Notes under the pieces: generated by a model
The model's database searches: none
Seen by the model: only the letters and a program-made list of their open reading frames with translations
Told to the model about the DNA's origin: nothing
Source: an uncultured bacterium
GTDB lineage: Bacteria > Arandabacterota > Arandabacteria > Arandabacterales > Arandabacteraceae
DNA length: 64,000 bases
Reading direction: 5' to 3'
NCBI GenBank assembly: GCA_964598025.1
Contig: CAZRAU010000002.1
Coordinates: 17,854 to 81,853 of the forward strand
Translations under genes and position numbers: made by a program
Shown: one piece after another, positions 6,785 to 27,531 of the stretch
Numbering within the stretch: the first letter of the stretch is position 1
Layout: the number at the start of each line of letters is the position of its first letter

Positions 6785-7090
6785 ATGAGAGGTTGCATCA
6801 AGTTGAAACTGTATATCTCCGGGCATACCGTCAGGTCTGACAACGCGATCAGCCATCTTCGCAGCATCTGCGAGGAAATGGTACGGGGCGGCTATGAGAT
6901 AAGGGTCATAGATGTCACGAGACACCCCGACCAGGCGGAGATCGATGGGGTCCTGGCCACGCCGACCCTGATCAAGGATTCGCCTCCGCCGGCTGCAAGG
7001 CTAATCGGGGACCTGTCCGATAGAGAGAGAGTAGTCACGGCGCTGGATCTGCGGTGTGAGCCGGCGGCACATGGCGCGAAGTCACTCTGA
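6785..7090 (+). CDS. kaiB: circadian clock protein KaiB homolog
   Basis: IKLKLYISGHT...EIRVIDVTRHPDQAEIDGVLATPTLIKDSPPPAARLIGDLSDRERVVTALDL matches the KaiB thioredoxin-like family signature (KLxLYV.G, ATPTL, IGDLS). ATG 6785 is one nt after the stop of the upstream gene. Confidence 0.9.
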   Translation: MRGCIKLKLYISGHTVRSDNAISHLRSICEEMVRGGYEIRVIDVTRHPDQAEIDGVLATPTLIKDSPPPAARLIGDLSDRERVVTALDLRCEPAAHGAKSL

Positions 7091-7112
7091 CCGAACAGGG
7101 GGTAACCATAGG

Positions 7113-8648: not shown

Positions 8649-8675
8649 AAGCAGGTCGCCCATCCGGTCGGCCAT

Positions 8676-14400: not shown

Positions 14401-14869
14401 GGGAACGGGGATCGGTGTAATACTGGCGGATGAGACCATCCAGGTTGAATTCGACAAGGCGGATAAGGCCCGCCGCTACGCCGAGCGAATCGTCGACAGC
14501 GTGCGGGAACCCATGCTTGTGCTCGACTCAGGCCTGCGAGTGATTTCGGCCAGTGCCGCGTTCTTCAGCGAGTTCGCCGCAAAGCCCCGGGAGACACTGG
14601 GCTTACAGATTCATGAGATCGGAAACGCGCTGTGGGATATACCCGAGCTGAGAGACAGGCTTGAAAAGACCCTGGCCTCAGGCCTGATTCTCAGGGACCT
14701 CGTCGTGGAGCGCGACTTGCCCGGGATCGGGAGAAGAAAGATGCTTCTCAATGGGCGTAGGCTGAAAATAGCCAAGGGTGAACCCGTAATGTTGTTGCTT
14801 ACCATCGAGAATATCTCGGAAGACGCGCCCAGCCGGGCAAACGTCACGGATACCGCGTGTGATCGGTGA
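11468..14869 (+). CDS. CheB methylesterase - CheR methyltransferase fusion protein with coiled coil and PAS domains, no kinase domain
   Basis: CheB-type VAIVGIGASAGGLEALEGFF...VVIQH. CheR-type FFREPEAFEVL...LRVWVPGCGTGEEAYSIAILI. Heptad-repeat linker. PAS-like segments to the C-terminus. Confidence 0.85.
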   Translation: MMVAEKRKRKAKPTEPDRPRGKACGHGPKAKSCSPGTPSDEPVAIVGIGASAGGLEALEGFFDHLPPKSGIAYVVIQHLAPQHKSVMDAILSKHTGMRINRITSGMKAEPDNIYLNQPDKDVTIVNGLLCLAELEEPHGIRLPIDRFLRSLAADRGEKAVCVILSGTGSDGTQGLKAIKETGGMAMVQEKEQARYEGMPASALATGLVDFELPVEDMADEIMKFASHTYVRCQQAVTAPEEDMEGSFARIFSFIRSETGHDFSGYKRKTTQRRIERRMALHGIDAVDAYVTFLREDSNEVKALYRDMLITVTSFFREPEAFEVLEKTAVHELLDTREPDTALRVWVPGCGTGEEAYSIAILIAEHLAARKRHLEVQVFATDLDDGSIEYARAGVYPASIAADVKAKRLERFFVSVDGSWRIKRRIREMLVFAVQDLIKDPPFSNLDLISCRNVLIYLDGALQKEVLSLFHYVLRPGGYLFLGSAETIGGFGDRFETVDSKHRIYRRKEAIHGEVKPHGVPPFFERRGRYPLTGEPSSRSASDIRGLAHRAIIDKYTPPCVLINGRHEILYFHGDTDKYLASPAGEASLDILKMIRPEIRYKLSGALHSVSKGLETVVCDDLTVVHGCESVSLDLVVKPVEDLRGAPGMMLVVFEERRKPKPARRRAGRYKADHPEDSSATALQQELASTKEHLQAAIEELETSNEELRSANEELQSTNEELQSTNEELETAREELRSSNEELETVATEREHKIQTLSKAHDDLNNLLASTDIGTIFLDLELRIKFFTPPTTAIFNVIETDIGRPISDITTAAKYAGLDRDAREVLTTLTKKETEVQTTDGRWFTVKMLPYRTTDNVINGVVITFTDVTRIKRAREHLAISRVALAAFMESATDGMMLFDSEGNLIEMNSAALELFPRGIRKEDVTGESIAKVLGLIGQGDRAEDYYATLETGIPFIDGERQRHPRIAGRYFSARVFRTGTGIGVILADETIQVEFDKADKARRYAERIVDSVREPMLVLDSGLRVISASAAFFSEFAAKPRETLGLQIHEIGNALWDIPELRDRLEKTLASGLILRDLVVERDLPGIGRRKMLLNGRRLKIAKGEPVMLLLTIENISEDAPSRANVTDTACDR
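13559..13699 (+). repeat. in-frame tandem repeat, 6.7 x 21 nt, encoding EEL(Q/E)(S/T)(S/T/A)N heptads inside the CheB-CheR gene
   Basis: gaggagctggaaaccagcaat / gaagaactcagatcggccaat / gaagagctccaatcgaccaat / gaggagctccagtcgaccaat ... Confidence 0.9.
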
Positions 14870-15472: not shown

Positions 15473-15606
15473 CATCGCCACACCCGTGGCGACGAAAGCC
15501 TTAGAGCGGCGTCATTCATCGCAACGCCACGGTAGGCAGCCAATTTCTCTTCCCACAGCCGGCATATCCATTCAAGTGTTGAGGTGCTTCGTCCGATGTA
15601 ACTAGT

Positions 15607-15616
15607 GGAGGTCACT
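15607..15616 (+). repeat. GGAGGTCACC motif copy (9/10, GGAGGTCACt) abutting ATG 15617
   Basis: tGGAGGTCACTATGagg. Confidence 0.6.
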
Positions 15617-18600
15617 ATGAGGAATGAGCATAAGCTCATTTGGTATCCCATATCGGCCGGTCTGCTGATAGTTATTTCGCACGCCCTGATCCGACTGGGC
15701 TTCCACTTCGCCGCAGGAGCATTCTTCCGGGCTGTTATTACAGGTCTTGAGGTCGGCGCGGGCCTGCTGTTTATCGGTGTGGCGCTTGCCGTCATCATTC
15801 GCCGGCATCGTGCTGCTCGGGACCTCGTCGAACGCGGGTCCGGGGATGAGTTGGCTTGGCTATCGCAGGTCTTCGACATGACTACGGAGAGCGTATTCAT
15901 CACCAACCTCGACCGGGTGATCATCGACGTCAACCGGGCCGCGCTGGAAGCAAGCGGGCGGAGTGGCAAGTCGGAGCTGGTCGGAAGAGATGTTCTTGAT
16001 ATCCTCGTGCCGGAGGACCGGGAGCCGGCTAAGGGCGCGTTCGAGAAGGTGGTGGAAGACGGCCATTTGACGGAACGCGGCTTCAGGGTCCTGAGGCCGG
16101 ACGGGGAACGCGTTGAGGTCGAAGCGAGCGTGTCCCTGATCAGAGACCCACAGGGCTATGCGGGGGGATTCGTAGGCATTGCGCGGGATCTGCACCTGCT
16201 CAGAGAGCGAGAAAGCCAGTTGTTGGACTCGGAGCGCCGCTTCAGAACCCTGTTTGATAGCGCCACGGACGGGCTGTTGGTGGCAGACACCGATACCAAG
16301 ATGCTGATCATGGCCAACCGGAGAATCTGTGAGATGCTGGGTTACACCCAGGCCGAGCTGCTGGCCCTGGGCGTCGAAGACATACATCCGGCGAAAGACC
16401 TGCCGCGGGTGTTCCAAGTGTTCGGCGATCAGGTCGCAGGTCGGCGTTCTTTCGCGGCGGAACTGCCCCTCAAGCGAAAAGACGGCAGTGTCATTCATGC
16501 CGACGTCAACTCCTCGATGATGACGCTGGACGGCAGTCCGCGCCTGCTCGGTATCTTCAGGGACGCAACCGAACGGATGGCAGCCGATGAGGTGCTCCGC
16601 GGGCGAACTCACGAGCTAGCCGAGAGAGTCAAGGAACTCGACTGTATGAACATGGCCTCGCGCCTCATGTCCGCACAGGAGAAGTCCACGGAAGAGATTC
16701 TCGCCGAATTGGTCCGGCTTGTGCCTGCGGCGTTGCAATACCCGGATAAGGCCTGCGGCATGGTCTCGGTAGACGGGGAGAATTACAGCACGCCCGGCTT
16801 TGTGGAAACCGGCAATGCAATATCGGCCATCATACGTGTGTCAAGGATGGCCAAGGGAAGATTGCTGGTTTGTTACGCCGGCACGTTTGACTCTGGCGAA
16901 GGCGATGGCGGCGCGTTCCTGAAAGAGGAGCAGCAGCTCATTGAAACGCTGGCCCTTGAAATAGGGAAGTTCCTGGAGCGAAGGGCGGTGAAAGCGGCCC
17001 TGGTGGCGAGTGAGGAGAAATACCGGCTGCTCGTCGACAACCAGACCGATCTTGTGGTCAAAGTCGATACGGAGGGCAGGTTCCTGTTCGCAAGCCGATC
17101 CTACTGCGAGATGTTCGGCAAGACCGAGGACGAGCTTTTGGGGCGGAAATTCATGCCTTTGGTACACGAAGATGATAGGGACGCCACAGTCAGGGAGATG
17201 GAACGCCTTTATAAGGCGCCGTTCACCTGCTATGCAGAACAGCGTTCGATGACTAAGGATGGATGGCGGTGGCTGGCATGGGCGTACAAGGCGATAGTCG
17301 GTGAAGACGGCAAGATCGAGGCGGTAGTGGGTGTGGGCCGGGACGTGAGCGGGCGCAAGGCCGCGGAACAGGCACTTTATCGCTCCGAGCACGAACTCAA
17401 AGTCAGAAACGAGATTGCCGACATCTTCCTCACGGTCCCTGATGATAAAATGTATGAGCGGGTTCTAGGGGCGGTTCTCAAGGCTGCCGGGAGCAGACGT
17501 GGTTGCTTCGCTGTCATGGACGAATCCAGGAGGCTGATCTGTGCTCCGGGAGTGATCGATGCCAGGGACATCTTCGTACGCACGCAATGCAGCAACGTCC
17601 TCACCGAGGACCAGTGGCTGGAGGCATGGGGAGACCTGTTCAGAGACGGCAAAGCCGTCGTCCTCGACGGTCCCCTGGATCTGTCCGGATCTCTATTGAA
17701 TGCTCAGAGGGGCATGGCCGCTCCGCTTGTCCATCAAAAGGCACCTGTCGGACTTCTCCTGGTTGCCGACAAGCCCAGCGACTACACCGAAGACGATCGG
17801 ACGTTGCTTGAGACGATCGGCAAGAAAATCGCGCCCATTCTCGCGGCCCGGCTCGAACGGGATACGGAGGAGCGAGGGCGCCTTGCAACGGAAGCGGAAA
17901 GAGAGCAACTACAATCCCAGCTCGTACAATCCCAGAAGATAGAAGCCATAGGCATCCTGGCCGGGGGTGTTGCCCATGACTTTAACAATATTCTCTCCTC
18001 GGTACAGGGGCATTGCGAGCTGGCGATGCTGAAGGCAGGTGAAGGCTCCCGGCTTGAACACGATCTCAAGCAGGTCGGGAATGCTGCGGCCCGCGGCGCT
18101 GCGCTGACACGCAAGCTGCTGCTCTTCAGCCGCAAGCACCCAATGGAAGTATCGCTTCTGGACATCAACGAAGTGGTCACGGACATGCACGAGATGCTCG
18201 ATCGCTTGATCGGCGAGGATATCACTGTTGAAAACCGGCTTGGCGATGACATCTGGACAGTCCGGGGAGACAGGACCGGTATCGAACAGGTGATAATGAA
18301 CCTGGCCGTGAACGCAAGGGACGCCATGCCGGCGGGGGGGGCAATAGAGATATCCACTGAGAACGTGGAGGTGGACTCGACGACGAGCCCGCCTTCACCC
18401 GACGGCAAACGCGGGAAGTACGTCTGCCTGAAGGTGAGCGACAACGGCACGGGAATGGACAGAAAGACCGTCGAGCGGATTTTCGAACCGTTTTACACCA
18501 CCAAGGAGATGGATAGCGGAACCGGGCTTGGGCTCTCGGTAGTCCACGGCATCGTCAAGCACCATGGAGGTTGGATTGACGTCAAGAGCACTCGCGGTCA

Positions 18601-19096
18601 GGGAAGCACCTTCAGAGTGTACCTGGCCGCGACCGGGCGCCCTGCGGAATCCCGCCCGAAGGAAAGCGGTTCGCTCGATGCATACAAAGGGAGCGGGGAA
18701 CGGGTCCTGGTCGTGGAGGACGAGGATCCTGTCCGAGAATTGGTCATCGAAGTCCTTGAAACCAACGGCTACAAAACGACACAGGCAGCCGGCGTCAAGG
18801 AAGCTCTAGCCATCTTCGAAGGCGCGGCCGGCAACTTCGACCTGGTGGTGAGCGATGTTGTCCTGGGAGACGGCACCGGGGTCGACCTGATCGCGGAGGT
18901 GCTGTCGCAGAAACCGGAAGTCAAGTGCCTGCTCAACAGCGGCTACACCGACGAGAAGTCCCAATGGCCGGAAATACGTGACCGGGGATACAATTTCCTG
19001 CACAAGCCGTTTACCGTCATCGCCTTGCTCCGCGCGGTGAAGGCGGCCCTGGCAAGCGAGGAAAAGACCCCTTCCATGACTGCCTCCGTGCCTTAA
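15617..19096 (+). CDS. large membrane hybrid sensor kinase (TM, PAS x3, conserved 115-aa sensory module, GAF, HisKA, HATPase, REC); track start 15605 (GTG)
   Basis: Hydrophobic N-terminus. H-box [21 protein letters not shown]. HATPase NARDAMP...[32 protein letters not shown]. Receiver VLVVEDEDPV...VVSDVVLGDGTG...NSGYTDEKSQWP. Confidence 0.88.
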   Translation: MRNEHKLIWYPISAGLLIVISHALIRLGFHFAAGAFFRAVITGLEVGAGLLFIGVALAVIIRRHRAARDLVERGSGDELAWLSQVFDMTTESVFITNLDRVIIDVNRAALEASGRSGKSELVGRDVLDILVPEDREPAKGAFEKVVEDGHLTERGFRVLRPDGERVEVEASVSLIRDPQGYAGGFVGIARDLHLLRERESQLLDSERRFRTLFDSATDGLLVADTDTKMLIMANRRICEMLGYTQAELLALGVEDIHPAKDLPRVFQVFGDQVAGRRSFAAELPLKRKDGSVIHADVNSSMMTLDGSPRLLGIFRDATERMAADEVLRGRTHELAERVKELDCMNMASRLMSAQEKSTEEILAELVRLVPAALQYPDKACGMVSVDGENYSTPGFVETGNAISAIIRVSRMAKGRLLVCYAGTFDSGEGDGGAFLKEEQQLIETLALEIGKFLERRAVKAALVASEEKYRLLVDNQTDLVVKVDTEGRFLFASRSYCEMFGKTEDELLGRKFMPLVHEDDRDATVREMERLYKAPFTCYAEQRSMTKDGWRWLAWAYKAIVGEDGKIEAVVGVGRDVSGRKAAEQALYRSEHELKVRNEIADIFLTVPDDKMYERVLGAVLKAAGSRRGCFAVMDESRRLICAPGVIDARDIFVRTQCSNVLTEDQWLEAWGDLFRDGKAVVLDGPLDLSGSLLNAQRGMAAPLVHQKAPVGLLLVADKPSDYTEDDRTLLETIGKKIAPILAARLERDTEERGRLATEAEREQLQSQLVQSQKIEAIGILAGGVAHDFNNILSSVQGHCELAMLKAGEGSRLEHDLKQVGNAAARGAALTRKLLLFSRKHPMEVSLLDINEVVTDMHEMLDRLIGEDITVENRLGDDIWTVRGDRTGIEQVIMNLAVNARDAMPAGGAIEISTENVEVDSTTSPPSPDGKRGKYVCLKVSDNGTGMDRKTVERIFEPFYTTKEMDSGTGLGLSVVHGIVKHHGGWIDVKSTRGQGSTFRVYLAATGRPAESRPKESGSLDAYKGSGERVLVVEDEDPVRELVIEVLETNGYKTTQAAGVKEALAIFEGAAGNFDLVVSDVVLGDGTGVDLIAEVLSQKPEVKCLLNSGYTDEKSQWPEIRDRGYNFLHKPFTVIALLRAVKAALASEEKTPSMTASVP

Positions 19097-19209
19097 CCTA
19101 CCGCCGGGAACTGCCTGTCGCAAGTCGCAAAGCACCGGGATAGAATCTTCTTGAGGAATGCGACCTCTTTCAACTAAAGACATCGGGAGGAGTGTCGATA
19201 TATACAGAT

Positions 19210-19219
19210 GGAGGTCACC
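19210..19219 (+). repeat. GGAGGTCACC motif copy followed by AGATGG, inside a 540-nt gene-free island
   Basis: gatGGAGGTCACCagATGg. Confidence 0.7.
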
Positions 19220-19631
19220 AGATGGTTCAGTCGGAAGTCTTAGGACTAAGCAGTATCCCTGGGAAGCTCAGTGGGCAGAGATCGAATTCTCACGTGCCCC
19301 TCGCTCCCGCCGATTCGTCGGGCCGGACAGTCCACCCTCTCCTCGCGGGAGCGGCCTGTTGCCCCCCGGCTATCCTGGCCTGCGAATCACTCTGTCCGTC
19401 GCCCCCGTCTCGTCAGGGAATCCGGCGCCTCTCCTTATGCACACCAGGCTCCCCGGAGACGGTACCCCCGTGGGTGTGGCAGCCGACTGGTGAAGTTGAA
19501 GACTCCCTTCTGGCGAACCTCGCCAAGGGGGTGGGGTCCCGAAGAGCACACATTCGCGGAAGCGGGCGGCGATGTCCGACCGCTCCCTATTGGGACAACG
19601 TTGGACCCCGCCCATCCCCAACCTATATGCG

Positions 19632-20555
19632 ATGGCTACACACATGAAAGTATTGATCATAGACGATAGCCCCGATGCCATGATGATCGCAAAAGCCCGG
19701 TTGGCCGGCGAAGATATCGAGATCCTGTGTGCCGACGGCGGGCGCAGCGGCCTTGCTATTGCCGAACAGGAGAAACCGGACGCGATCCTTCTGGATCTGG
19801 ACATGCCGGACATGTCGGGATTCGATGTCTGCCGGGCGCTCAAGTCCCACCTTGAGCTCAACATGATCCCTATCGTCTTCCTGTCCGGGTCAGGCAGCCC
19901 GGAGGACAAGATAAAAGGTCTCAACCTTGGGGCCGTGGACTATGTGACGAAGCCTTTTGACGCATTCGAACTCAAGGCGCGGGTCAGGGCCGTGCTGAGA
20001 ACCAAGCGTCTGCAGGATCTCCTCGTTGAGCAAGCCCGGATCGACCCGCTGACGGGGTTGCCTAACCGCCGAGCGTTCACCGAAAAGCTCGGGCAGGAGT
20101 GGGCCAGAGTGAACCGGCACCAGGTGGCGATGTCTTTAATCATGGCCGACATCGACACCTTCAAAGCTCTGAACGATACCTACGGCCACCAGGTGGGCGA
20201 CGAAGTCTTGCAGGAAGTTGCAGCCAGGATCCGGCAGTCATGCCGGGTCAATGACATGTCCGCACGGTACGGTGGCGAGGAGTTTGTTATTGTCGCCCCC
20301 GACACAGTCGCGGTGGGGGCTTTCCGGCTCGCCGAGAGGTGCCGCCGTGCTGTGGAAGGCATCCGCCTGAAGGTTGACGGCTCGACGGTGTGTCCCACGG
20401 CAAGCTTCGGTGTCGCCGACGCGGACCAGGCGGATTCACCGGAGGCGTTGATCAGGCTGGCCGATGACGCCCTTTATCGGGCGAAAGCCGCGGGTCGTAA
20501 TCGTGTGGAATGTTCCGGTCCTGTACCCCACGAGGCACATGCCGAAGCCCTATAG
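19632..20555 (+). CDS. response regulator with GGDEF diguanylate cyclase output (REC-GGDEF); track start 19572
   Basis: MKVLIIDDSPD...AILLDLDMPDMSG receiver. RYGGEEFVIV active-site motif and RxxD-like region. Confidence 0.85.
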   Translation: MATHMKVLIIDDSPDAMMIAKARLAGEDIEILCADGGRSGLAIAEQEKPDAILLDLDMPDMSGFDVCRALKSHLELNMIPIVFLSGSGSPEDKIKGLNLGAVDYVTKPFDAFELKARVRAVLRTKRLQDLLVEQARIDPLTGLPNRRAFTEKLGQEWARVNRHQVAMSLIMADIDTFKALNDTYGHQVGDEVLQEVAARIRQSCRVNDMSARYGGEEFVIVAPDTVAVGAFRLAERCRRAVEGIRLKVDGSTVCPTASFGVADADQADSPEALIRLADDALYRAKAAGRNRVECSGPVPHEAHAEAL

Positions 20556-20684
20556 GCAGTCCGCCCTCCCTGCGGGCACACCATAAGCGCATCACCACCG
20601 AGCCGTCGGTCCGGGGATCCGGCCGGACTGCATCACGCGATTTACACTTAAACCCGAATGTCACCGGTGCCGATATGAATACAT

Positions 20685-20694
20685 GGAGGTCACC
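20685..20694 (+). repeat. GGAGGTCACC motif copy abutting ATG 20695
   Basis: catGGAGGTCACCATGtta. Confidence 0.7.
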
Positions 20695-21297
20695 ATGTTA
20701 TTCAGACTGAGAATTGCCGCGTATGCGTGTATTGCGTGCGTGCTCATCGTAACACACTTTCTTGCCGCGGTGCGCCTCCACGGTGTTGGCGGCAATCTGT
20801 CGAGCGTGTTGTACGCAGCCCCGGGTATCGCGGCATTCATTCTGCTGTCCATAGTCATACACCGTGTGACACCCACCGGAGTGTCCACAGCCGGCCGCGT
20901 TGCCCAAAGGATGAAAGGGTTACACTGTCTCTACCAGGTCTCAGCGGTCATGGCGAGGGAGCAGGGATTGGTCGAGACCCTGCAGCAGGTAGTCGATCTG
21001 ATTCCGCCCGCCATGCAGTATCCGGGCAGCGCCCAAGCCAGGATAACATGCGCAGGGATGAACTTCAATACGTCAGGGTTTGTTGAGACGGAGTGGGGGA
21101 TTTCGTCTGAAATAAAGGTGGGTGGGAGACCGGTCGGCTCGCTTCAAGCCTGCTATGCAGCGGAACGCCCGGAGACCGAGCGCGGCCCCTTCCTTGAGTA
21201 TGAAGAACTGCTTATCAAGGCTCTTGCCGCTGAGGCAGGAGCATTCATCGAACAATATCAGGCTGCAGAGTCGCCGAGACTGCGACAGCGGGTGTAA
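20695..21297 (+). CDS. small membrane protein: 2 predicted TM helices + conserved 115-aa sensory module (no output domain); track start 20683
   Basis: Hydrophobic stretches IAAYACIACVLIV and GIAAFILLSIVI. Module LHCLYQVSAVM...AMQYP...TSGFVETEWGIS...FLEYEELLIKALAAEAGAFIEQ shared with the HKs at 15617 and 24628. Confidence 0.7.
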   Translation: MLFRLRIAAYACIACVLIVTHFLAAVRLHGVGGNLSSVLYAAPGIAAFILLSIVIHRVTPTGVSTAGRVAQRMKGLHCLYQVSAVMAREQGLVETLQQVVDLIPPAMQYPGSAQARITCAGMNFNTSGFVETEWGISSEIKVGGRPVGSLQACYAAERPETERGPFLEYEELLIKALAAEAGAFIEQYQAAESPRLRQRV

Positions 21298-21298
21298 C

Positions 21299-23212
21299 AT
21301 GCGAGACGAATACAAGTTCATCATAATCGGTGGAATTGCCGGCGCTGCCATTTACTTCACTCGAAGCGTCGCCAGTCCCCTGCTTTTTCCGGATCAGTCG
21401 GCCTGGGAGTGGATCGGCAACGAACTCCCGATCTATGCGATCGTTACGGTGTTCGCAGTGGCTGCATTGCGCATTCTCAGGGGCCACAGGGCGGTTGTTC
21501 GAACCACGAAACAGCTTCAACATGAGTCCGATATCCGTGACCGGATCAGCAGGACATTCCTGTTGGCCCCGGAAGAGAACGTGTACTCGGACGTGCTGGA
21601 TCACATAATCAAGTTCACCGGCAGCAAGCACGGCGTCTTCGGCTATCTGGATGAGCGCGGGCGCCTGGTATGTCCGTCCCTCACCGACCGCCAATGGGAT
21701 TTGCTGCAATCGCAGGATACAGGCATCGTCTTCAAGCGGCATACCTGGACGGGCCTATGGGGACGTGCGCTTACCGAACGAAGGCTCGTATGGTCGAACA
21801 GTAGCATAACCACACCAGGGGGGCCCGGGGCAGTACACCGGGCGGTAGGCGTTCCGCTAATGCATGAGCGCAAGGTCATCGGACTCCTGATGGTCGGGGA
21901 GAAACCGACGGACTACTCGCTTGCGGACCGGGTGTTCATTCAACATATTGCAGACCATATCGGGCCCATCCTGAACCGGAAACTCGAGGCATTCACGCCG
22001 GACTCGGAGGGTGGGGCCGGCTCGGACAGGCAGCAAGCACAGATCCGGATTCTCCAGCAGCAGCGTCTGGACGCTACATCCGCCGCGACGAGTGCCGTCG
22101 CCACCCAGTTCAGCCGGTGTGTATCCGGCACAGGGACCAAAATAGCCTCAGCGGTCAAGGGAGACGACCGGCGCCTGTTGCTCGGGGACCTCAGGCGGGT
22201 CTATGAGATCGGGCTCAGGTCGGTCAACCTGACACGGCAATTGCTGCTTCTTAATCGAAAGCACTTCATCAGGCCAGTTACCCTGGACATAAGCGTTGTA
22301 ATGCATGAAGTGCTGAAGATGATGGGCAATCTGCTAGGTGAAGATGTCGAGGTCACCGCCGATCTGGAGGCGGACCTCTGGTCTGTTCAAGCAGACCGAG
22401 CCGCGATAGAGCAGGTAATAACGGAACTGGTCATGAATGCCCTCGCTGCGATGCCGGCGGGAGGACATCTCCGGATTGAAACCCAAAACGCCGCCATCGG
22501 GGAAGGGGAATACGAGCTGACCGAAGAAGCCCGTCCCGGCAATTTCGTGTGCATATCGGTGACGGATGACGGGCACGGAATGGACAGGACCAAGCTCAAG
22601 AACGTATTCGAGCCGTTTACCGGTGGGGAAGAGGAAGAGGCGGGACCGGGCGTGGGCCTCTCGGTGGCCCGGAGCATAATCAGACAGCATGAAGGTTGGA
22701 TCAACGCATACAGTGAGCCGGGGCGAGGCTCGACGTTCAAGATGTACTTGCCCGGATTGGCGATTGCGCGCCGGGAGACCCATGAAGGGCCGGCGTCGAA
22801 TGAGGCCGTCAGGGGCCACGGAGAGAGAATCCTCCTGGTCGAAGACGAGGACGAAATCTGCGAATTGGTCGCACTCCTGCTTGCGGAGAACGGATACGCG
22901 GTGACCAGTGCCGCGCATGCCAATGAGGCCATCAGGATCTTCAGAAGCGAGAATGGGACATTCGACTTGTTATTCAGCGACATCGCACTACCCGACGAGG
23001 ACGGTATCTCCCTCGCAAACAGGCTGGTGCGAATCAAGCCCGATCTCCCGGTCTTGCTTACCAGCGGCTACATGGACGCCGAAGGCCAGTGGCGTATCAA
23101 GTGCGACAAGGGATACGGTTTCGTCAGCAAGCCCTTCTCGACCGCAGTCATGCTGAAGGAGGTCTCCCAGGCTCTCACCCAGGGTAGTGCCGTGGACAAG
23201 GTCACAGCGTAG
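21299..23212 (+). CDS. hybrid histidine-kinase-like protein (2TM-GAF-DHp-HATPase-REC) whose H-box histidine appears replaced (AVATQFSR instead of VAHDFNN)
   Basis: ATG 21299 one nt after the TAA of the upstream ORF. GAF similar to the 15617 protein. DHp alignment anchored on LTRQLLLLNRKH. Intact N/G boxes ([46 protein letters not shown]). Receiver with Asp (LLFSDIALPDEDG). Confidence 0.8.
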   Translation: MRDEYKFIIIGGIAGAAIYFTRSVASPLLFPDQSAWEWIGNELPIYAIVTVFAVAALRILRGHRAVVRTTKQLQHESDIRDRISRTFLLAPEENVYSDVLDHIIKFTGSKHGVFGYLDERGRLVCPSLTDRQWDLLQSQDTGIVFKRHTWTGLWGRALTERRLVWSNSSITTPGGPGAVHRAVGVPLMHERKVIGLLMVGEKPTDYSLADRVFIQHIADHIGPILNRKLEAFTPDSEGGAGSDRQQAQIRILQQQRLDATSAATSAVATQFSRCVSGTGTKIASAVKGDDRRLLLGDLRRVYEIGLRSVNLTRQLLLLNRKHFIRPVTLDISVVMHEVLKMMGNLLGEDVEVTADLEADLWSVQADRAAIEQVITELVMNALAAMPAGGHLRIETQNAAIGEGEYELTEEARPGNFVCISVTDDGHGMDRTKLKNVFEPFTGGEEEEAGPGVGLSVARSIIRQHEGWINAYSEPGRGSTFKMYLPGLAIARRETHEGPASNEAVRGHGERILLVEDEDEICELVALLLAENGYAVTSAAHANEAIRIFRSENGTFDLLFSDIALPDEDGISLANRLVRIKPDLPVLLTSGYMDAEGQWRIKCDKGYGFVSKPFSTAVMLKEVSQALTQGSAVDKVTA

Positions 23213-23408
23213 CGTCGAGACTTCTGTCGCGGGCGGGCCGGCTCGCGTCATCCGCGAACCTCGGTCGCGAGGTGACGGAGATGCCGGTGCCGTGGCAGAG
23301 GGTTTGTGAATAATCAGGGCTAGGTGGGACGGCGGAGGCTCCGGGTATCGGAGCGCCCCAGCGATGGAATCTGCGGGGCTGGCCGCGCTCGGCCAATGAC
23401 CGCGGTTT

Positions 23409-23418
23409 GGAGGTCACC
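23409..23418 (+). repeat. GGAGGTCACC motif copy in gene-free convergent intergenic island
   Basis: gtttGGAGGTCACCtaagg. Confidence 0.7.
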
Positions 23419-23474
23419 TAAGGAAGGTGCCGCGGCCAGAGGAGTGCGGCCAGCCCCATTGCCGCTCTCACACT

Positions 23475-23484
23475 GGAGGTCACC
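23475..23484 (+). repeat. GGAGGTCACC motif copy followed by AGATG (same extended form as copy at 19210)
   Basis: actGGAGGTCACCagATGtgg. Confidence 0.7.
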
Positions 23485-23885
23485 AGATGTGGGGTGAGCG
23501 GCATTGCAGATCGTATCGCTTCGGCGGGCGCGCCCGTGCAGCCGGCCATGTGGCCGGAACGGGGCCGTCGTCTGAAAACCGAACACGGGGATTGGAGTCC
23601 TCGTCGTCCCGGCTCCATCAGATCTTTTCGGCATGCCCAAAGCCTCCGCGTTTTCGTCTATCAAAAAAGGCACAATCGATGTCGTCTCACGTTTACGACG
23701 ACTCAATTGCGCCTTCGACTTGCAGGTCTTATAACCTGCCCGGCAAGGCGGCCCGCGCCCAAGTCGCGAGCCTTTTTCACTATCCAACTATCTACTTCGA
23801 CACATGGCCTGGAAACTTTAGCTGTTTTTGTGGCATCTTTTCTTTTTCACTCTTGGGCGCCATGCACGCTCGTCGGACGGCTGTC

Positions 23886-24635
23886 TCAATCGGTCGCGTC
23901 GACCAGGTCCTCAATCTTCTTGCGTAGGTCGCTGAGCTCCTTGGATCTGAACGACCGCTTGGACTTCTCGAGCACGTCGATCGTCTCCTTCATGGTGTCG
24001 ACGAGTTTCCTGGTTCTCGGGCAATCCAACAGACGGCAGATCTCGCCCTTGCCGGCTGAATCGGCAATAGCGGCCATGGCCGTCCTCAGGTCGGCCAAGC
24101 CGCCGGCGATGTGGCTGAGAGTCAACGCCACATACGTATCGGTGGGGACCGCGGGCAGGCCGGCCGGCTTTTCGGAAAGAACGCTCTTTATCTCGTCGAG
24201 GTCGCGGTCCCAGTCCAGGAGGCGCTGTTGAGTCTTACATACGGCCTTGAAAACCCTGGAACGTGAAAGGGCGGATTCGATCGCGGTCAGTAAGGCCGGA
24301 AAATCTATCGGTTTCAACACATAGGCAACGACGGGCAGGCTTACCGAATCTATGGCGGTTCTCATCGAGGGGTAGCCGGTTACCAGGATTACCGGGAGGC
24401 CATCGTCCAGGTCCTTGACTTTCCGAATAAGCTCCAGGTCGGGGTTCCCGGGCATCTTTATATCCGCGATAAGGAGATCGTACTTGTCCAGCCGCAGTGC
24501 CTCTGCCGCGGCCCTCCCATCCGGGACACAACAGCACTCATATCCCTCATCACGGAGAAGGTCACCGGTGGATTTCAGAAACGACATCTCATCGTCGGCA
24601 AGCAGCAGTTTCCCCTTAGAGGTGGTATCAGGCAT
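23886..24635 (-). CDS. response regulator: receiver + uncharacterised ~120-aa helical C-terminal domain
   Basis: KLLLADDEMSF...LLIADIKMPGNPD...VILVTGY...VAYVLKP. Overlaps the end of the upstream HK by 8 nt (operon). Confidence 0.75.
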   Translation of the reverse strand: MPDTTSKGKLLLADDEMSFLKSTGDLLRDEGYECCCVPDGRAAAEALRLDKYDLLIADIKMPGNPDLELIRKVKDLDDGLPVILVTGYPSMRTAIDSVSLPVVAYVLKPIDFPALLTAIESALSRSRVFKAVCKTQQRLLDWDRDLDEIKSVLSEKPAGLPAVPTDTYVALTLSHIAGGLADLRTAMAAIADSAGKGEICRLLDCPRTRKLVDTMKETIDVLEKSKRSFRSKELSDLRKKIEDLVDATD

Positions 24636-27471
24636 TCTGATCCTCCGATCTCCACGGCAATCTTACGATGAAGGTTGTCCCTTTGCCAACAGCAGTCTCG
24701 AAAGCGATGGTCCCTCCCATGGCCTCGATCATGTTCTTCGATACCGATAACCCCAGCCCCAGGCCGCGCAGATCGCCTTCGGACCTCGTGGTGAAAAACG
24801 GTTCGAATATCAGATCCCGGTGTTCGGGCGCGATCCCTGTACCGGCATCCTCAACTTCGATAACCACGCCGGAAGCCTCTCGATTGATGGACACCGTTAT
24901 CGTCCCGGATGTCGGGGACGCCTCAATGGCGTTGCTGAGCAGGTTGAACATCACCTGGCTGAAGTATCCGACCGGCAGCCTGACATTCACGGGCTCCTGC
25001 GGCGCGTTGCAGAGCAGCTTGATCTCCCTTGCCCTCAGACTGCTCTCGAGCAGAGTGAAGACCTCCTTAACCGAGTCGACCACCGAGATCGCGCGGCGCG
25101 GCTGCACCTCGTCGCGGTAAAGCTCGAACATCTTACGGATTATCAAGGCGATCCGGTCGATTTCGTGTCCGACCAGATCGACATACTCGAAACGCGGATG
25201 ATCCTTAGGGACGGCTCCCTTGATCAGAAGAAACGAGTTCTTGATGCCGGCAAGCGGATTGTTTATCTCATGGGCGATTCTGGCCGCCATCCTGCCGGTC
25301 GCGGCGATTCCTTCAGCGGAGGCGCGCTGCCGCTCGAGATCATGTATGCGCTGCGTTCGTTGCTCCACGAGTCTCTCCAATTCCTCGCTGTAGGTTCTAA
25401 TCTGCGCTTCCGCGAGGCGGAGCCCGCCCTCGCTGTTCTTAAGATTGGTGATGTCAACCGCCGAGACAAGCAGGTTTGTAGACATGTCCCGGGATGGGGC
25501 AACGGCAACCGAGCGGAGGCTGACATATCGCTCGCGGCCTTTGGCCGTGCGCGTGCGATACTCCGCATGGAAGCGAGCATTGCCGCCGGCGAGCGCTATG
25601 ATGGTGCCCACAAACGGCTCCAGCGCGGGGCCGCGGATACTCGAGACAACGAACTCTCGGAACTCATCCATTGTGGCACATTCATACAATCTCAGGGCCG
25701 CGTCATTCGCCCGGTCTATGCTCATCACTTGTGCGCATGCCGAGAGGTCATCCGGATGGCTTCGGAGGTGGGCTGCGCAGTCTGTAATGGCCCGTGATCG
25801 GAGATCATCGAGGTAGGCTATCACTTTCGCACAATCGATCTCGACCAGGGCGATGGGTGCTTCCTCGAACAGACGCCTGTAGGCTTCCTCGCTCTTCCTG
25901 AGTGCGCCTTCGGTTCGCTTGAGATCGGTAATATCCAGGATAACCCCCAGGAACCCCGCAAGCGACCCGTCCGGGCCGGCATACGTGGCCTTGTTGAAGA
26001 CCACGTCCCTGACGTCGCCGGCCGCCGTTTTGACCCGCCGCTCGTAGGTTTGGGTGCCTGGGTTCGCGAAGAGCTCGGCGTCCATCTTCGTACACTCGTC
26101 GGCGACCTCCTTGGGCGCTATCTCGTACCCGGTTTTGCCGATTATCTCAGCCTGCGTCAGCCCTATGAAGCGCTCGAAAGCCCGGTTACAGCCCGTGTAG
26201 CGCCCTTCCGGGCCCTTGTAGAACACAGGATTGGGGATTGTGTCCATCAGTATGCGTAGCAGCTCAAGCTGGCGCTTGAGTTCGACCTCGGCCTGTTTGC
26301 GCTGCGTGACGTCGCGGGCGACATTCATGATCTCGACAACCTTCCCATCCCTCAAGATCGGGATCGCGTTTATCTCGAAGCTGCGAACCGTGGCTTCGTC
26401 GAGATGCACTGCAACGTCGAAGCCCCGCACCTCCTCGCCGGCCCGCAGCCGCCCTGCAACCGTGGAGATGGCATCGGGGTCGGTTGCGGTGAAGAGTGAC
26501 AGGACATTGACATTCCTCGCTTCCTCCAGTGTGAGCCCGAGGAGGTCGAGGCTGGCCTTGTTTGCATAAAGGATACGGCCGTCGGCATCGGTGAGGTACG
26601 TGTGATCAGGATTAGCCGACAGGAAGAGATTCAGTCTCCGTTCGTGCTCGGCGATCTCCATCCGCCCCCATCTTCGCTCGATGAAACCGGCGATGTCTCC
26701 TGCCAATATGTCGATGAGCCGCTTCTCCTCCTCAAGGAAGGGGGCTTCGGTGGGCCGGGCCGGATCCTCAAGGTAGTAAACCTCTATGGCCCCGACGAGA
26801 GCATCCTTTACTCTTATGTCCGATGACATCCTGCATGGGCTTTCCTCGAAGCCGGAGGTTCTCACCTCGGTACCGGACAATACGATTCGCACGCATGTGT
26901 CGCCGGGGCGGCTCATGGCCGACGGCAGTAGATTCGCTATCTCCTGGAGCACCCGGGGGACTTCGGCTTCCGGGTCTGCCATCGCTTTCGACGTCGCGTG
27001 AAGGCAACTGAGTTCTCGCACCCGCACATGGAGTTTTCCCCGCTTGTCTTCCAGTTGCGCCATCGCAGTCTTCTGCTCGGTAATGTCACGGAAGATTTCC
27101 ACTCTGTGGCGGGTCCCATCAGGATTCCGGACCAGCGTATCAATGATGTCGTATATCCGCTTGTTCTTCGGGCAGAACCATTCCCTTCGGGACTTCTCTC
27201 CGCGGTAAACCGCCTCACTCGGACAGCCCTCGCAGGTTGTCGGGCCTTGTTCGAAGTACTCATAGCACTTTCTGCCCTCCCAGGGGCCGTATAGGTCTTC
27301 GATCAAGTGGTTGACATAGAGGACGTCACGGGTCTGGTTGGTGATCAACAAGCCGTCTTCGAGGGCATCAAACACCCTGCGGAGATTATCAAGATCGTCC
27401 ATCAACCGCGCGCGGGCCCCTTCCGGCTCCCGTACCGACCGGTTCTTGGTCTTCGCTCGATCTCCCATCAT
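24628..27471 (-). CDS. multi-PAS sensor histidine kinase carrying the conserved 115-aa sensory module; ATG 27471 preferred (track GTG 27516)
   Basis: H-box AHEINNPLAGIKNSFLL. HATPase NLLSNAIEASPTSG...DAGTGIAPEH...GLGLGLSVSKNMIEAMGGTIAFETAVGKGTTF. Module LSCLHATSKAM...SAMSRP...TSGFEESPC...FLEEEKRLIDILAGDIAGFIERR. GGGAGG SD before ATG 27471. Confidence 0.85.
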   Translation of the reverse strand: MMGDRAKTKNRSVREPEGARARLMDDLDNLRRVFDALEDGLLITNQTRDVLYVNHLIEDLYGPWEGRKCYEYFEQGPTTCEGCPSEAVYRGEKSRREWFCPKNKRIYDIIDTLVRNPDGTRHRVEIFRDITEQKTAMAQLEDKRGKLHVRVRELSCLHATSKAMADPEAEVPRVLQEIANLLPSAMSRPGDTCVRIVLSGTEVRTSGFEESPCRMSSDIRVKDALVGAIEVYYLEDPARPTEAPFLEEEKRLIDILAGDIAGFIERRWGRMEIAEHERRLNLFLSANPDHTYLTDADGRILYANKASLDLLGLTLEEARNVNVLSLFTATDPDAISTVAGRLRAGEEVRGFDVAVHLDEATVRSFEINAIPILRDGKVVEIMNVARDVTQRKQAEVELKRQLELLRILMDTIPNPVFYKGPEGRYTGCNRAFERFIGLTQAEIIGKTGYEIAPKEVADECTKMDAELFANPGTQTYERRVKTAAGDVRDVVFNKATYAGPDGSLAGFLGVILDITDLKRTEGALRKSEEAYRRLFEEAPIALVEIDCAKVIAYLDDLRSRAITDCAAHLRSHPDDLSACAQVMSIDRANDAALRLYECATMDEFREFVVSSIRGPALEPFVGTIIALAGGNARFHAEYRTRTAKGRERYVSLRSVAVAPSRDMSTNLLVSAVDITNLKNSEGGLRLAEAQIRTYSEELERLVEQRTQRIHDLERQRASAEGIAATGRMAARIAHEINNPLAGIKNSFLLIKGAVPKDHPRFEYVDLVGHEIDRIALIIRKMFELYRDEVQPRRAISVVDSVKEVFTLLESSLRAREIKLLCNAPQEPVNVRLPVGYFSQVMFNLLSNAIEASPTSGTITVSINREASGVVIEVEDAGTGIAPEHRDLIFEPFFTTRSEGDLRGLGLGLSVSKNMIEAMGGTIAFETAVGKGTTFIVRLPWRSEDQNA

Positions 27472-27531
27472 GGGCCTCCCGGAGTGGGTAATAGCGATGC
27501 ACCGGACACCCGGCACCGCTATGGTATACCA

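What the first reader, a model, noticed from the sequence alone, without database searches (positions are those of the whole stretch)
20695..23212. Translationally coupled pair: 2TM sensor-module protein plus hybrid kinase lacking the phospho-accepting histidine
- Coupling: ORF 20695-21297 (two TM helices plus the conserved sensory module, no output) ends TAA one nucleotide before ATG 21299.
- Downstream protein: ATG 21299 opens a 2TM-GAF-DHp-HATPase-REC protein.
- Relation to the intact paralog: together the two genes reproduce most of the domain order of the single large HK at 15617, so this looks like a split or reshuffled paralog.
- Missing histidine: in the DHp helix the alignment is anchored on the conserved LTR(K/Q)LLL(F/L)(S/N)RKH segment. 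The H-box reads SAVATQFSRC where paralogs have [10 protein letters not shown], i.e. the catalytic His is Thr.
- Retained domains: the N and G boxes and the receiver Asp are intact.
- Implication: this predicts a kinase-dead scaffold or phosphatase, or a protein that is trans-phosphorylated by a partner HK, possibly as a heterodimer with the 15617 or 1272 paralog.
Basis: seen in the sequence. Interest (0 to 1): 0.65.

Follow-up and report, generated by a model that had tools for sequence, protein, structure and literature searches.

The report
Histidine-less hybrid kinase with small partner
The gene at 21299-23212 encodes a sensor kinase look-alike that lost its phosphorylatable histidine long ago yet is still kept by selection, which makes it a bacterial "pseudokinase", a kind of protein already known from DivL, RcsD and PsmA.

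Summary
ORF1 (20695-21297) ends in TAA one base before the ATG of ORF2 (21299-23212). ORF2 is a 2TM-GAF-DHp-HATPase-REC protein with Thr269 (ACC, 22103-22105) where 109 of 109 canonical relatives have the H-box His.

It is neither an error nor a pseudogene:
- Five orthologs (85-51% identity) also lack the His (S, A, G, D, D). With ORF2 they form one clade (100/100 bootstrap).
- dN/dS is about 0.15 in every domain.
- The whole H-box helix has lost its canonical residues, including the HisKA phosphatase motif (HDxxN to TQFSR).
- The N-box R/D and the ATP-lid FFTTK motif are also degenerate. The N-box Asn, the G1 box and all five receiver active-site residues are kept.

Synteny gives the history. 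A CckA-like hybrid kinase (the 15617 type) was duplicated in tandem, and one copy lost PAS-module-PAS and the His. REC-GGDEF and ORF1 appear only in the window's sub-lineage.

ORF1 is a 2TM protein with a divergent GAF domain. It evolves about twice as fast as ORF2, is deleted in one close relative and is absent from the distant ones.

Best reading: a histidine pseudokinase whose receiver is phosphorylated in trans. A phosphatase role is unlikely. This is a new member of a known kind and is moderately interesting.

The parts
20685..20689 (+). Shine-Dalgarno GGAGG of ORF1, 5 nt before the ATG
   Evidence: Sequence. The same TGGAGGTCACC-ATG context occurs in L003, L004 and L006 and at the 15617 start.
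20695..21297 (+). ORF1: 200-aa membrane protein with two hydrophobic helices, a divergent GAF domain, a C-terminal helix and no output domain
   Evidence: ORF and junction. No Pfam or NCBIfam hit. AF2 model pLDDT 84. Orthologs in L001, L003, L004 and P0126. dN/dS 0.21-0.36.
20701..20868 (+). ORF1 membrane anchor (about res 3-27 and 36-58)
   Evidence: Kyte-Doolittle 19-residue windows reach 2.26. Helices H2-28 and H35-56 in the AF2 model. Similar to the N-terminal anchor of the large kinase P0007 (z=9.3, 0 of 500 shuffles).
20887..21288 (+). ORF1 sensory module (res 65-198), a divergent GAF fold
21295..21301 (+). Stop-1nt-start junction TAA-C-ATG, with the ORF1 stop lying between a weak SD (GGGTG) and the ORF2 start
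   Evidence: The same layout is seen in L001 (TAA-T-ATG) and in L003/L004 (TAA-G-GTG). Distant orthologs without ORF1 have their own strong SD (GGAGGT in L005).
21299..23212 (+). ORF2: 637-aa His-less CckA-like hybrid kinase homolog (2TM-GAF-DHp*-HATPase-REC)
21317..21484 (+). ORF2 membrane anchor (about res 7-29 and 42-62)
   Evidence: Hydropathy and AF2 helices. The anchor of ortholog P0005 resembles the 15617 kinase anchor (z=7.3).
21572..21973 (+). GAF_2 domain (res 92-225)
   Evidence: Pfam E=1.9e-16. Collinear with the GAF of the 15617 kinase.
22019..22252 (+). DHp-like helical hairpin (res 241-285 and 291-318)
   Evidence: AF2 secondary structure, at low confidence (pLDDT 53-64). Matches an HMM of 109 canonical DHp regions at E=5e-13. 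Helix 1 keeps only 25% of canonical conserved residues and helix 2 keeps 50%.
22091..22120 (+). Remnant H-box SAVATQFSRC. The Thr269 codon ACC (22103-22105) sits at the phospho-acceptor His position, and the phosphatase motif is also lost.
22394..22753 (+). HATPase_c catalytic-type domain (res 366-485)
   Evidence: Pfam E=2.1e-21. Closest solved structure is the CckA DHp-CA, 5IDJ. dN/dS 0.11-0.14.
22424..22465 (+). N-box: the Asn is kept (N380), but NARDAMP has become NALAAMP
   Evidence: R382 is lost in 4 of 6 orthologs and D383 in 6 of 6.
22619..22654 (+). Degenerate ATP-lid motif (FFTTKE.GKGTGL has become FTGGEEEEAGPGV)
   Evidence: Only ortholog P0006 still reads FFTTKE.
22829..23164 (+). 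Receiver domain (res 511-622) with E515, D516, D561 (22979-22981), S589 and K611 all intact
   Evidence: Pfam E=4.5e-18. All five residues are kept in 6 of 6 orthologs. The D561 codon was checked.
15617..19096 (+). Canonical paralog: 2TM-PAS-PAS-module-PAS-GAF-HisKA(His)-HATPase-REC kinase
   Evidence: Pfam. 35% identity to ORF2 over 616 aa. 41% identity to P0007. Orthologs of this type lie directly upstream of the ORF2 orthologs in L002 and L005.
19572..20555 (+). REC-GGDEF diguanylate cyclase gene upstream of ORF1 on the same strand
   Evidence: Pfam. Syntenic in L003 and L004. Deleted in L006 and absent in L002 and L005.
23886..27516 (-). Convergent REC protein (23886-24635) and PAS-HisKA kinase (24628-27516), present downstream of every ORF2 ortholog whose contig reaches that far
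   Evidence: Pfam. Synteny in L001, L002, L003 and L005 (the L006 contig ends before that point) and in the pre-duplication locus L010. The REC protein is 63% identical to its L010 counterpart.

Best explanation
ORF2 is a histidine pseudokinase. It is a membrane-anchored GAF sensor descended from a CckA-like hybrid histidine kinase.

Origin: the 15617-type gene was duplicated in tandem. One copy lost the PAS-module-PAS segment and then the phospho-accepting His, together with the whole H-box helix signature.

Consequences (inferred, not shown): it can no longer autophosphorylate at the canonical site or act as a HisKA-type phosphatase. It is nevertheless maintained by purifying selection in all domains.

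Most likely mode of action (inferred): it still senses through its GAF domain. Its receiver Asp561 accepts phosphate in trans from another kinase of this signalling island. The candidates are the canonical paralog at 15617 and the always-syntenic convergent kinase at 24628-27516. In that role it would act as a phosphate sink, competitor or regulated scaffold, with the DHp/CA-like core serving as an interaction or regulatory module.

ORF1 is a lineage-specific, output-less 2TM-GAF sensor fragment of the same large-kinase family. It is probably co-translated with ORF2 through the stop-1nt-start junction. It is an accessory and not an obligatory partner.
For: Shown:
- Thr sits at the His column in pairwise, multiple and profile alignments, and Pfam finds no HisKA.
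- Five orthologs at 85-51% identity also lack the His (S, A, G, D, D). With ORF2 the six form one clade with 100/100 bootstrap on 332 columns that exclude helix 1. This indicates one old loss.
- dN/dS is 0.15-0.18 overall and below 0.26 in every domain against the three closest orthologs (L001, L006, L003), with synonymous sites near saturation in the distant pairs.
- Retention of canonical conserved residues follows a gradient: DHp helix 1 25%, helix 2 50%, CA 76%, REC 88%.
- The phosphatase motif HDxxN is lost in 6 of 6. The N-box D is lost in 6 of 6 and the lid FFTTK in 5 of 6. N380, D423, G425, G427, G453 and L454 are kept in 6 of 6. The REC quintet E515, D516, D561, S589 and K611 is kept in 6 of 6.
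- The synteny series is L010 (canonical kinase then convergent REC and HK), then L002/L005 (canonical kinase, His-less copy, convergent REC and HK), then the window, L003 and L004 and, as far as its cut contig shows, L001 (REC-GGDEF and ORF1 added), then L006 (REC-GGDEF and ORF1 deleted again).

Precedent from the literature:
- PsmA of Streptomyces is a hybrid-kinase pseudokinase. It has a variable residue at the His position, a degenerate ATP lid, a retained REC Asp and no autokinase activity (PMC12963549).
- DivL is a pseudokinase whose DHp-CA core has been repurposed as a sensor (PMC4211667 abstract).
Against: - No biochemical data exist for this protein.
- In PsmA the retained REC Asp turned out to be dispensable. 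Conservation of the quintet therefore does not prove phosphorylation.
- The CA domain has the lowest dN/dS and keeps the Mg-binding Asn and the G1 box, so ATP binding or residual catalysis cannot be excluded.
- One ortholog (P0006) still has an intact lid motif.
- No partner kinase is identified. The canonical paralog is not adjacent in L004.
- The DHp model is of low confidence.
Confidence: 0.6

Rival explanations
1. Phosphorylation-independent scaffold or adaptor, as in PsmA. The HK-like core and the REC are kept only as interaction surfaces, and D561 is never phosphorylated.
For: PsmA retains its REC Asp, yet D-to-A, D-to-Q and D-to-E alleles all complement. The H-box, the phosphatase motif and the lid are all degenerate in ORF2.
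Against: All five REC active-site residues are kept in six orthologs that have diverged to 51% identity. REC retains 88% of the family's conserved positions. Pseudo-receivers that are not phosphorylated usually lose some of the quintet (general knowledge; see also the topic of 10.1101/2025.06.23.661182 listed).
Confidence: 0.2
2. ORF2 is still an active ATP-dependent enzyme. Its CA domain phosphorylates a His on a partner kinase within a heterodimer, for example with 15617, or it uses a non-canonical acceptor residue.
For: N380, the G1 box DxGxG and the G2 core GL are invariant, and CA has the lowest dN/dS. His322, His336, His390 and His464 are conserved in all six.
Against: - The lid motif FFTTK is lost in 5 of 6, and the N-box R and D are lost.
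- There is no conserved His in DHp helix 1.
- H322 is shared with the canonical paralog 15617 ('RKH') and P0007 ('RRH') and lies at the far end of helix 2.
- The residue at the His column varies (T, S, A, G, D, D), so it is not a conserved alternative acceptor.
- Helix 1, which forms the dimer and docking surface, is the most diverged part.
Confidence: 0.12
3. ORF1 and ORF2 are the two halves of one split sensor and work only together. ORF1 would supply the input domain to ORF2.
For: The stop-1nt-start junction is conserved in three lineages. ORF1 is under purifying selection (dN/dS 0.21-0.36). Its module is homologous to the module of the large kinases.
Against: - ORF1 is reduced to a remnant in L006 while ORF2 there is intact at 80% identity.
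- ORF1 is absent in L002 and L005, where ORF2 orthologs have their own strong SD.
- ORF1 evolves about twice as fast as ORF2 (46% against 71% identity to L003).
- Both proteins have their own membrane anchor.
- In L003 the first helix motif of the module is destroyed.
Confidence: 0.12
4. Artefact or decaying pseudogene: a sequencing or assembly error at the His codon or at the 21297/21299 junction, or a gene drifting neutrally.
For: Only the atypical H-box and the missing HisKA hit.
Against: - An identical sequence appears in an independent metagenome contig, L009.
- Five diverged orthologs lack the His.
- ACC to CAC needs two substitutions.
- dN/dS is about 0.15.
- The junction is conserved in L001, L003 and L004.
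Confidence: 0.02

Closest known systems
PsmA (SCO4009 family), the hybrid histidine pseudokinase of Streptomyces (PMC12963549)
   Same: An HK-like protein with a C-terminal receiver. The His position is occupied by a residue that varies among orthologs. The HisKA phosphatase motif is lost, the ATP lid is degenerate and the REC Asp is retained. The protein is conserved within a clade.
   Different: It is an unrelated lineage and architecture: PsmA is cytoplasmic, with PAS domains and a long disordered region, and it binds DivIVA. ORF2 is 2TM-GAF, CckA-like, sits in a multi-kinase island next to its canonical parent, and keeps more ATP-binding residues. PsmA has experimental support; ORF2 has none.
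DivL of Caulobacter (pseudokinase, Tyr for His; PMC4211667; PDB 4Q20)
   Same: A HisKA-type kinase homolog without the His, which acts as a regulator of a bona fide CckA kinase. Its CA domain is detectably similar to ORF2 (E=1.8e-12).
   Different: DivL has a conserved Tyr at the site, multiple PAS domains and no receiver, and is alphaproteobacterial. ORF2 has a variable residue, a GAF domain and a REC. No DivK-like partner is identified.
CckA (bifunctional hybrid kinase/phosphatase; PDB 5IDJ and 5IDM; PMC5026420)
   Same: It is the closest solved and NCBIfam-named relative of ORF2's helix 2, CA and REC. Both belong to the hybrid HisKA-HATPase-REC family with the GGVAHDFNN / NARDAMP / FFTTK motifs.
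   Different: ORF2 lacks the His, the phosphatase motif, the N-box R/D and the lid motif. NCBIfam scores are far below the CckA cut-offs (223 against 1000). Of the CckA c-di-GMP contacts Y514, K518 and W523, ORF2 has R458, R462 and W467, so that site is not clearly kept.
RcsD (pseudo-HK domain plus Hpt in the Rcs phosphorelay) and RetS/GacS-type multikinase networks
   Same: A kinase-like membrane protein without autokinase function, working alongside a canonical hybrid kinase encoded nearby. RcsD is called a pseudo-histidine kinase in a paper listed. The rest is general knowledge.
   Different: RcsD carries an Hpt domain and no REC. RetS keeps its His. There is no sequence-level relationship beyond the HK superfamily, and none was tested here.
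GAF domain superfamily (for the ORF1 module)
   Different: ORF1 itself has no Pfam or NCBIfam hit. The family has its own signature (ERVKELDCLY...WQYP...CARI...GPFLKEE), and its ligand is unknown.

Membership tests
HisKA-type (CckA-like) hybrid histidine kinase | Phospho-accepting His in the H-box of DHp helix 1 | tested here: not met
   Thr269 sits at the column that is His in 109 of 109 canonical relatives. A profile HMM places it on the His state.
HisKA-type (CckA-like) hybrid histidine kinase | Match to the Pfam HisKA (PF00512) profile | tested here: not met
   No hit at E<=1. The five orthologs also lack PF00512 in the precomputed annotation.
HisKA-type (CckA-like) hybrid histidine kinase | HisKA phosphatase motif H-[D/E]-x-x-[T/N] | tested here: not met
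   The canonical HDFNN reads TQFSR in ORF2. It is lost in 6 of 6 orthologs. The motif is as described in PMC12963549.
HisKA-type (CckA-like) hybrid histidine kinase | HATPase_c domain with N, G1, F/lid and G2 boxes | tested here: inconclusive
   The Pfam HATPase_c hit is strong (E=2e-21). N380, D423, G425, G427, G453 and L454 are kept. The N-box R382/D383 and the lid FFTTK/GTGL are degenerate.
HisKA-type (CckA-like) hybrid histidine kinase | C-terminal receiver with the acidic pair, phospho-Asp, Ser/Thr and Lys | tested here: met
   E515, D516, D561, S589 and K611 are present in 6 of 6 orthologs.
Histidine pseudokinase (functional class: DivL, PsmA, RcsD) | Clear HK homolog lacking the His, with the loss shared by orthologs | tested here: met
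   Six orthologs form a clade with 100/100 bootstrap.
Histidine pseudokinase (functional class: DivL, PsmA, RcsD) | Maintained by selection, so not a pseudogene | tested here: met
   dN/dS is 0.15-0.18 overall (0.23 against the most distant, saturated pair) and stays below 1 in every domain where dS could be estimated.
Histidine pseudokinase (functional class: DivL, PsmA, RcsD) | No autokinase activity | not testable with these tools
   Requires a [gamma-32P]ATP assay on the purified cytoplasmic fragment.
DivL orthologs | Tyr at the His position, a multi-PAS N-terminus and no receiver | tested here: not met
   The residue is Thr and variable, the sensor is a GAF domain and a REC is present. 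Only the CA domain aligns to 4Q20.
CckA orthologs (NCBIfam NF046020 and NF046026) | Score above the curated equivalog cut-off | tested here: not met
   223 and 191 bits against a cut-off of 1000.
GAF domain (ORF1 module) | GAF fold | tested here: met
GAF domain (ORF1 module) | Match to the Pfam GAF, GAF_2 or GAF_3 profiles | tested here: not met
   No hit for ORF1. Module relatives give only weak partial hits.
Translationally coupled gene pair | Stop of the upstream gene within a few nt of the downstream start, conserved in relatives | tested here: met
   TAA-N-ATG/GTG in the window, L001, L003 and L004.
Translationally coupled gene pair | Downstream translation depends on upstream translation | not testable with these tools
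   Needs reporter fusions with ORF1 start and stop mutants.

The most novel reading that the evidence does not exclude
ORF2 could be a DivL-like 'reverse-signalling' pseudokinase outside the Alphaproteobacteria. Its own covalently attached receiver would report the phosphorylation state of the island's kinases back onto a dead DHp/CA core. That core would then allosterically control the parental CckA-like kinase (15617) or the convergent HK-REC pair. The detachable GAF protein ORF1 and the neighbouring diguanylate cyclase would act as lineage-specific inputs. The ortholog series would then be a natural time-course of kinase-to-pseudokinase conversion: His and phosphatase motif first, ATP lid later.
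Probability: 0.15. Interest if true: 0.55.

Novelty: new member of a known kind. Interest (0 to 1): 0.35.

Why it matters
Histidine pseudokinases are few and mostly known from single model organisms (DivL, RcsD, PsmA, RocA). This locus offers something those lack: the pseudokinase lies next to its still-canonical parent.

Related metagenome contigs preserve four states:
- the state before the duplication;
- the state just after it;
- the state after an extra sensor and a cyclase were added;
- the state after these were lost again.

This makes the order of decay readable. The acceptor His and the phosphatase motif went first, the N-box and ATP lid later, and the receiver not at all. It also gives concrete partner candidates for testing how a dead kinase is wired into a multi-kinase network.

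It does not overturn any concept. The organism is uncultured and no function can be assigned, so the value is as a comparative case and not as a discovery of a new mechanism.

Tried and rejected
- **Organism.** A genome-contig scan with ORF2 found only unrelated HATPase hits. The exact-sequence look-up gave no names. The encoding-contig look-up for P0001 found nothing.
- **Recent DNA duplication.** I tested whether ORF1's 'MEVTM' upstream frame and start region come from a recent duplication of the 15617 start. Only a 14-nt SD-plus-ATG match was found (E=0.42), so this was rejected as evidence.
- **Sister group.** I looked for a canonical sister group of the His-less clade with an NJ tree of helix 2, CA and REC. 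The clade itself is solid, but its sister is unresolved (0/100 for the grouping with 15617, P0007 and the L002 upstream kinase). The parent-copy inference therefore rests on GAF collinearity, the best hit P0007 and tandem synteny.
- **Alternative acceptor His.** None is conserved in helix 1.
- **c-di-GMP site.** Prompted by the neighbouring GGDEF gene, I checked the CckA-type contacts. Y514 corresponds to R, L or H in the orthologs, so the site is not clearly kept.
- **Module family size.** The exhaustive profile search with alignment A4 picked up 356 profile positions, including kinase columns. The 1.65 million hits are therefore mostly generic kinases, and the size of the module family is not cleanly measured. 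Only the top hits with 2-11 tandem module copies are informative.
- **Conserved downstream region.** Rfam gave nothing at gathering threshold or at E<=1, and there are no tRNAs. A metagenome pattern scan for the conserved hairpin returned only a contig identical to the window.
- **Promoters and terminators.** The scan found nothing in 19000-24000. A terminator-like stem at 23750-23785 is not better than shuffles (z=-0.69).


Full report
**1. The observation**

ORF1 runs from ATG 20695 (GGAGG at 20685-20689) to TAA 21295-21297. After one base, ATG 21299 opens ORF2, which ends at 23212. The public record of this contig has the same 200-aa and 637-aa products.

Pfam finds GAF_2 (92-225), HATPase_c (366-485) and Response_reg (511-622) in ORF2, but no HisKA even at E<=1. 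It finds nothing in ORF1. The window's other kinases all give HisKA or HisKA_2 hits. The window is a large signalling island. It carries a KaiC homolog, a CheB-CheR-PAS fusion, a REC-GGDEF gene and at least eight kinases.

**2. Is the histidine really missing?**

- BLASTP of ORF2 against the 15605/15617 kinase gives 35% identity over 616 residues. It is gap-free across the H-box, 'ATSAVATQFSRC' against 'LAGGVAHDFNNI'. The 1272 kinase gives the same register.
- In a MAFFT alignment of 115 family members, the column is His in 109. It is T, S, A, G, D, D in ORF2 and its five closest relatives only.
- An HMM built from the 109 canonical DHp regions aligns all six at E of 1e-11 to 1e-14. In five of them it places the non-His residue on the His match state; for P0004 only helix 2 aligned.
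- The codon is ACC (22103-22105), two changes from a His codon.
- A contig with identical sequence exists in an independent metagenome.

Both fail.

**3. Is it a functioning gene?**

A homolog search found five orthologs at 85, 80, 71, 52 and 51% identity. None has a HisKA annotation.

On 332 columns that exclude helix 1, ORF2 and these five orthologs form a clade in 100 of 100 bootstrap NJ trees. The His was therefore lost once, in their common ancestor.

Nei-Gojobori dN/dS between the window and the orthologs is 0.15-0.18 overall against all but the most distant pair (0.23, with synonymous sites saturated). By domain it is GAF 0.10-0.22, DHp helix 1 0.15-0.25, helix 2 0.13-0.16, CA 0.11-0.14 and REC 0.13-0.19 for the three closest pairs. 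This is purifying selection on every part, so the gene is not a decaying pseudogene.

**4. What has decayed and what has not**

I took the columns that are at least 85% conserved in the 109 canonical sequences. The six His-less proteins keep the following shares of those residues:

| Region | Canonical conserved residues kept |
|---|---|
| DHp helix 1 | 25% |
| DHp helix 2 | 50% |
| CA domain | 76% |
| Receiver | 88% |

Lost in all six:
- the His;
- the adjacent Asp and the Asn four residues on, which form the HisKA phosphatase motif D/E-x-x-T/N (as described in PMC12963549);
- the GG preceding the His;
- the N-box Asp (NARDAMP).

Lost in most:
- the N-box Arg (4 of 6);
- the lid motif FFTTK (5 of 6; only P0006 still reads FFTTKE).

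Kept in all six:
- the Mg-binding Asn380;
- the G1 box D423-x-G-x-G;
- the G2 core G453-L454;
- the complete receiver quintet E515, D516, D561, S589 and K611.

The 'phosphatase' option is disfavoured.

No His is conserved in helix 1. H322 is conserved, but it is shared with the canonical paralogs and lies at the end of helix 2.

The AF2 model keeps a helical hairpin (241-285 and 291-318) at low confidence. The GAF, CA and REC domains are confident.

The closest solved structure is the CckA DHp-CA (5IDJ), but the match starts only at residue 297, so helix 1 no longer aligns. DivL's CA domain is also detected. NCBIfam's best models are the CckA equivalogs, far below their cut-offs.

**5. Origin**

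Related contigs give a series of states.

| Locus | Gene order |
|---|---|
| L010 (carries P0007, which is 41% identical and collinear with the 15617 kinase) | Large canonical kinase, then directly the convergent REC protein (63% identical to 23886-24635) and PAS kinase, then a CHASE hybrid kinase. This is the window's order without ORF2. |
| L002 and L005 (52% and 51% orthologs) | His-less gene immediately behind a canonical full-length kinase with an intact 'AAGVAHDFNNVL'. It has its own strong SD. There is no ORF1 and no GGDEF gene. |
| Window, L003 and L004 | A REC-GGDEF gene and ORF1 lie between the two. L001 shows ORF1 and the same junction, but its contig is cut within ORF1. |
| L006 (80% ortholog) | REC-GGDEF and most of ORF1 are deleted. 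A short remnant is left and ORF2 is intact. |

The simplest history is a tandem duplication of the large kinase. One copy then lost PAS-module-PAS by internal deletion, and lost the His. ORF1 and REC-GGDEF were gained in one sub-lineage.

The membrane anchors argue against a simple split. ORF1's anchor resembles that of P0007 (z=9.3). The anchor of an ORF2 ortholog resembles that of the 15617 kinase (z=7.3). ORF1 and ORF2 are therefore two separately anchored deletion derivatives of the large-kinase family, not the two halves of one split gene.

**6. ORF1**

Its C-terminal 130 residues are 40% identical to residues 338-459 of the 15605-frame kinase.

A profile search found the same module fused to HisKA-HATPase, HisKA_3, LuxR-type HTH, STAS and nucleotidyltransferase domains, and also standing alone. 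It has the signature ERVKELDCLY...WQYP...CARI...GPFLKEE. In the exhaustive search the top hits carry 2 to 11 tandem copies.

ORF1 is under purifying selection (dN/dS 0.21-0.36), but it evolves about twice as fast as ORF2 (46% against 71% identity to L003). In L003 the first helix of the module has lost its motif. ORF1 is deleted in L006 and absent in L002 and L005.

The stop-1nt-start junction places the ORF1 stop between a weakened SD (GGGTG) and the ORF2 start. It is conserved in three lineages. This fits termination-reinitiation coupling, which cannot be tested here. ORF1 is best seen as a lineage-specific accessory.

**7. Mechanism**

Shown:
- The canonical acceptor and the phosphatase motif are gone.
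- The lid is degenerate.
- The receiver chemistry is intact.
- Every domain is under selection.
- The gene always sits next to the convergent REC and kinase pair, and often next to its canonical parent.

Inferred:
- ORF2 cannot autophosphorylate or dephosphorylate in the HisKA manner.
- It acts as a GAF-regulated pseudokinase whose receiver takes phosphate in trans, working as a sink, competitor or regulated scaffold within this multi-kinase island.

Rivals:
- A phosphorylation-independent scaffold, as shown for PsmA, where the REC Asp is dispensable.
- Residual ATP-dependent activity on a partner.
- An obligatory ORF1-ORF2 two-piece sensor.
- An artefact.

A CckA-type c-di-GMP site, suggested by the neighbouring cyclase, is not clearly conserved. 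Y514, K518 and W523 correspond to R458, R462 and W467.

**8. Comparison and novelty**

Histidine pseudokinases are a known kind.
- DivL has Tyr for His and its DHp-CA core has been repurposed as a sensor (PMC4211667).
- RcsD has a pseudo-HK domain.
- PsmA of Streptomyces is a hybrid-kinase pseudokinase with a variable residue at the His site, a degenerate lid and a retained REC Asp (PMC12963549).

ORF2 works like these, as far as sequence can tell, but it is not a member of their families. It fails the DivL and CckA membership tests and is unrelated to PsmA in architecture. It is a new, small, uncultured clade of a known kind.

Its main value is the preserved series of evolutionary intermediates next to the parental gene.

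Noticed in passing
window 23320-23830 (hairpin 23375-23457): The convergent intergenic region between ORF2 and the reverse-strand REC gene is more conserved at DNA level (80-89% to L003, L004 and L006) than the flanking genes (72-80%). It contains an 83-nt hairpin of about 32 bp (dG -56.4 kcal/mol, z=-3.7 against shuffles). The hairpin has a few compensatory changes across five copies and is duplicated in L003. There is no Rfam match at gathering threshold or at E<=1. It occurs once in the window. It is a candidate structured RNA or 3'-UTR element.
   Followed up: partly
window 19097-19571: A 475-nt intergenic region upstream of the REC-GGDEF gene is conserved in L003 and L004 (77% over part of it) and in L006 (69% over 419 nt). 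In L006 it persists although the GGDEF gene is deleted. Gene callers have placed probably spurious ORFs over it (L004 2568-3287). It may be a regulatory leader.
   Followed up: no
window 20887-21288 and 16616-16981; proteins P0127-P0150, P0151, P0290: The ORF1 module defines a widespread divergent GAF family with its own signature (ERVKELDCLY...WQYP...CARI...GPFLKEE) and no dedicated Pfam or NCBIfam model. It occurs alone or fused to histidine kinase, LuxR HTH, STAS, nucleotidyltransferase and Ser/Thr kinase domains. Up to 11 tandem copies occur in one protein. Two conserved Cys suggest a redox or cofactor role, which was not tested.
   Followed up: partly
window 20684-20697, 15606-15619, 23409-23419, 23473-23489: The string TGGAGGTCAC(C/T) followed by ATG recurs at the starts of ORF1 and the 15617 kinase (and in L003, L004 and L006). 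It also occurs twice in the conserved downstream intergenic region: once inside the hairpin loop region, and once 2 nt before an ATG at 23487 whose downstream frame is not conserved. It may simply be this organism's preferred SD context, or an SD mimic in a regulatory RNA.
   Followed up: no
L002 340-420 (upstream canonical kinase): In the L002 lineage the canonical large kinase has itself lost most of the GAF-like module. Only the first helix remains ('ERVKELAGLNQASRIMA') and it runs straight into a PAS domain. Domain erosion in this family is therefore not limited to the His-less copy.
   Followed up: no
window 7056-10655 and 11468-14869: A KaiC homolog (E=5e-110) is followed 27 nt later by a REC-PAS-HisKA-HATPase kinase. 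Further on lies an 1133-aa CheB-CheR-PAS fusion. These make the first 31 kb of the window an unusually dense signalling island.
   Followed up: no
window 23886-24635 (-): The always-syntenic 249-aa response regulator has a conserved C-terminal domain of about 125 residues with no Pfam hit. It contains a 'CRLLDCP(K/R)TR' motif and is 63% identical to its L010 counterpart. Its output function is unknown.
   Followed up: no
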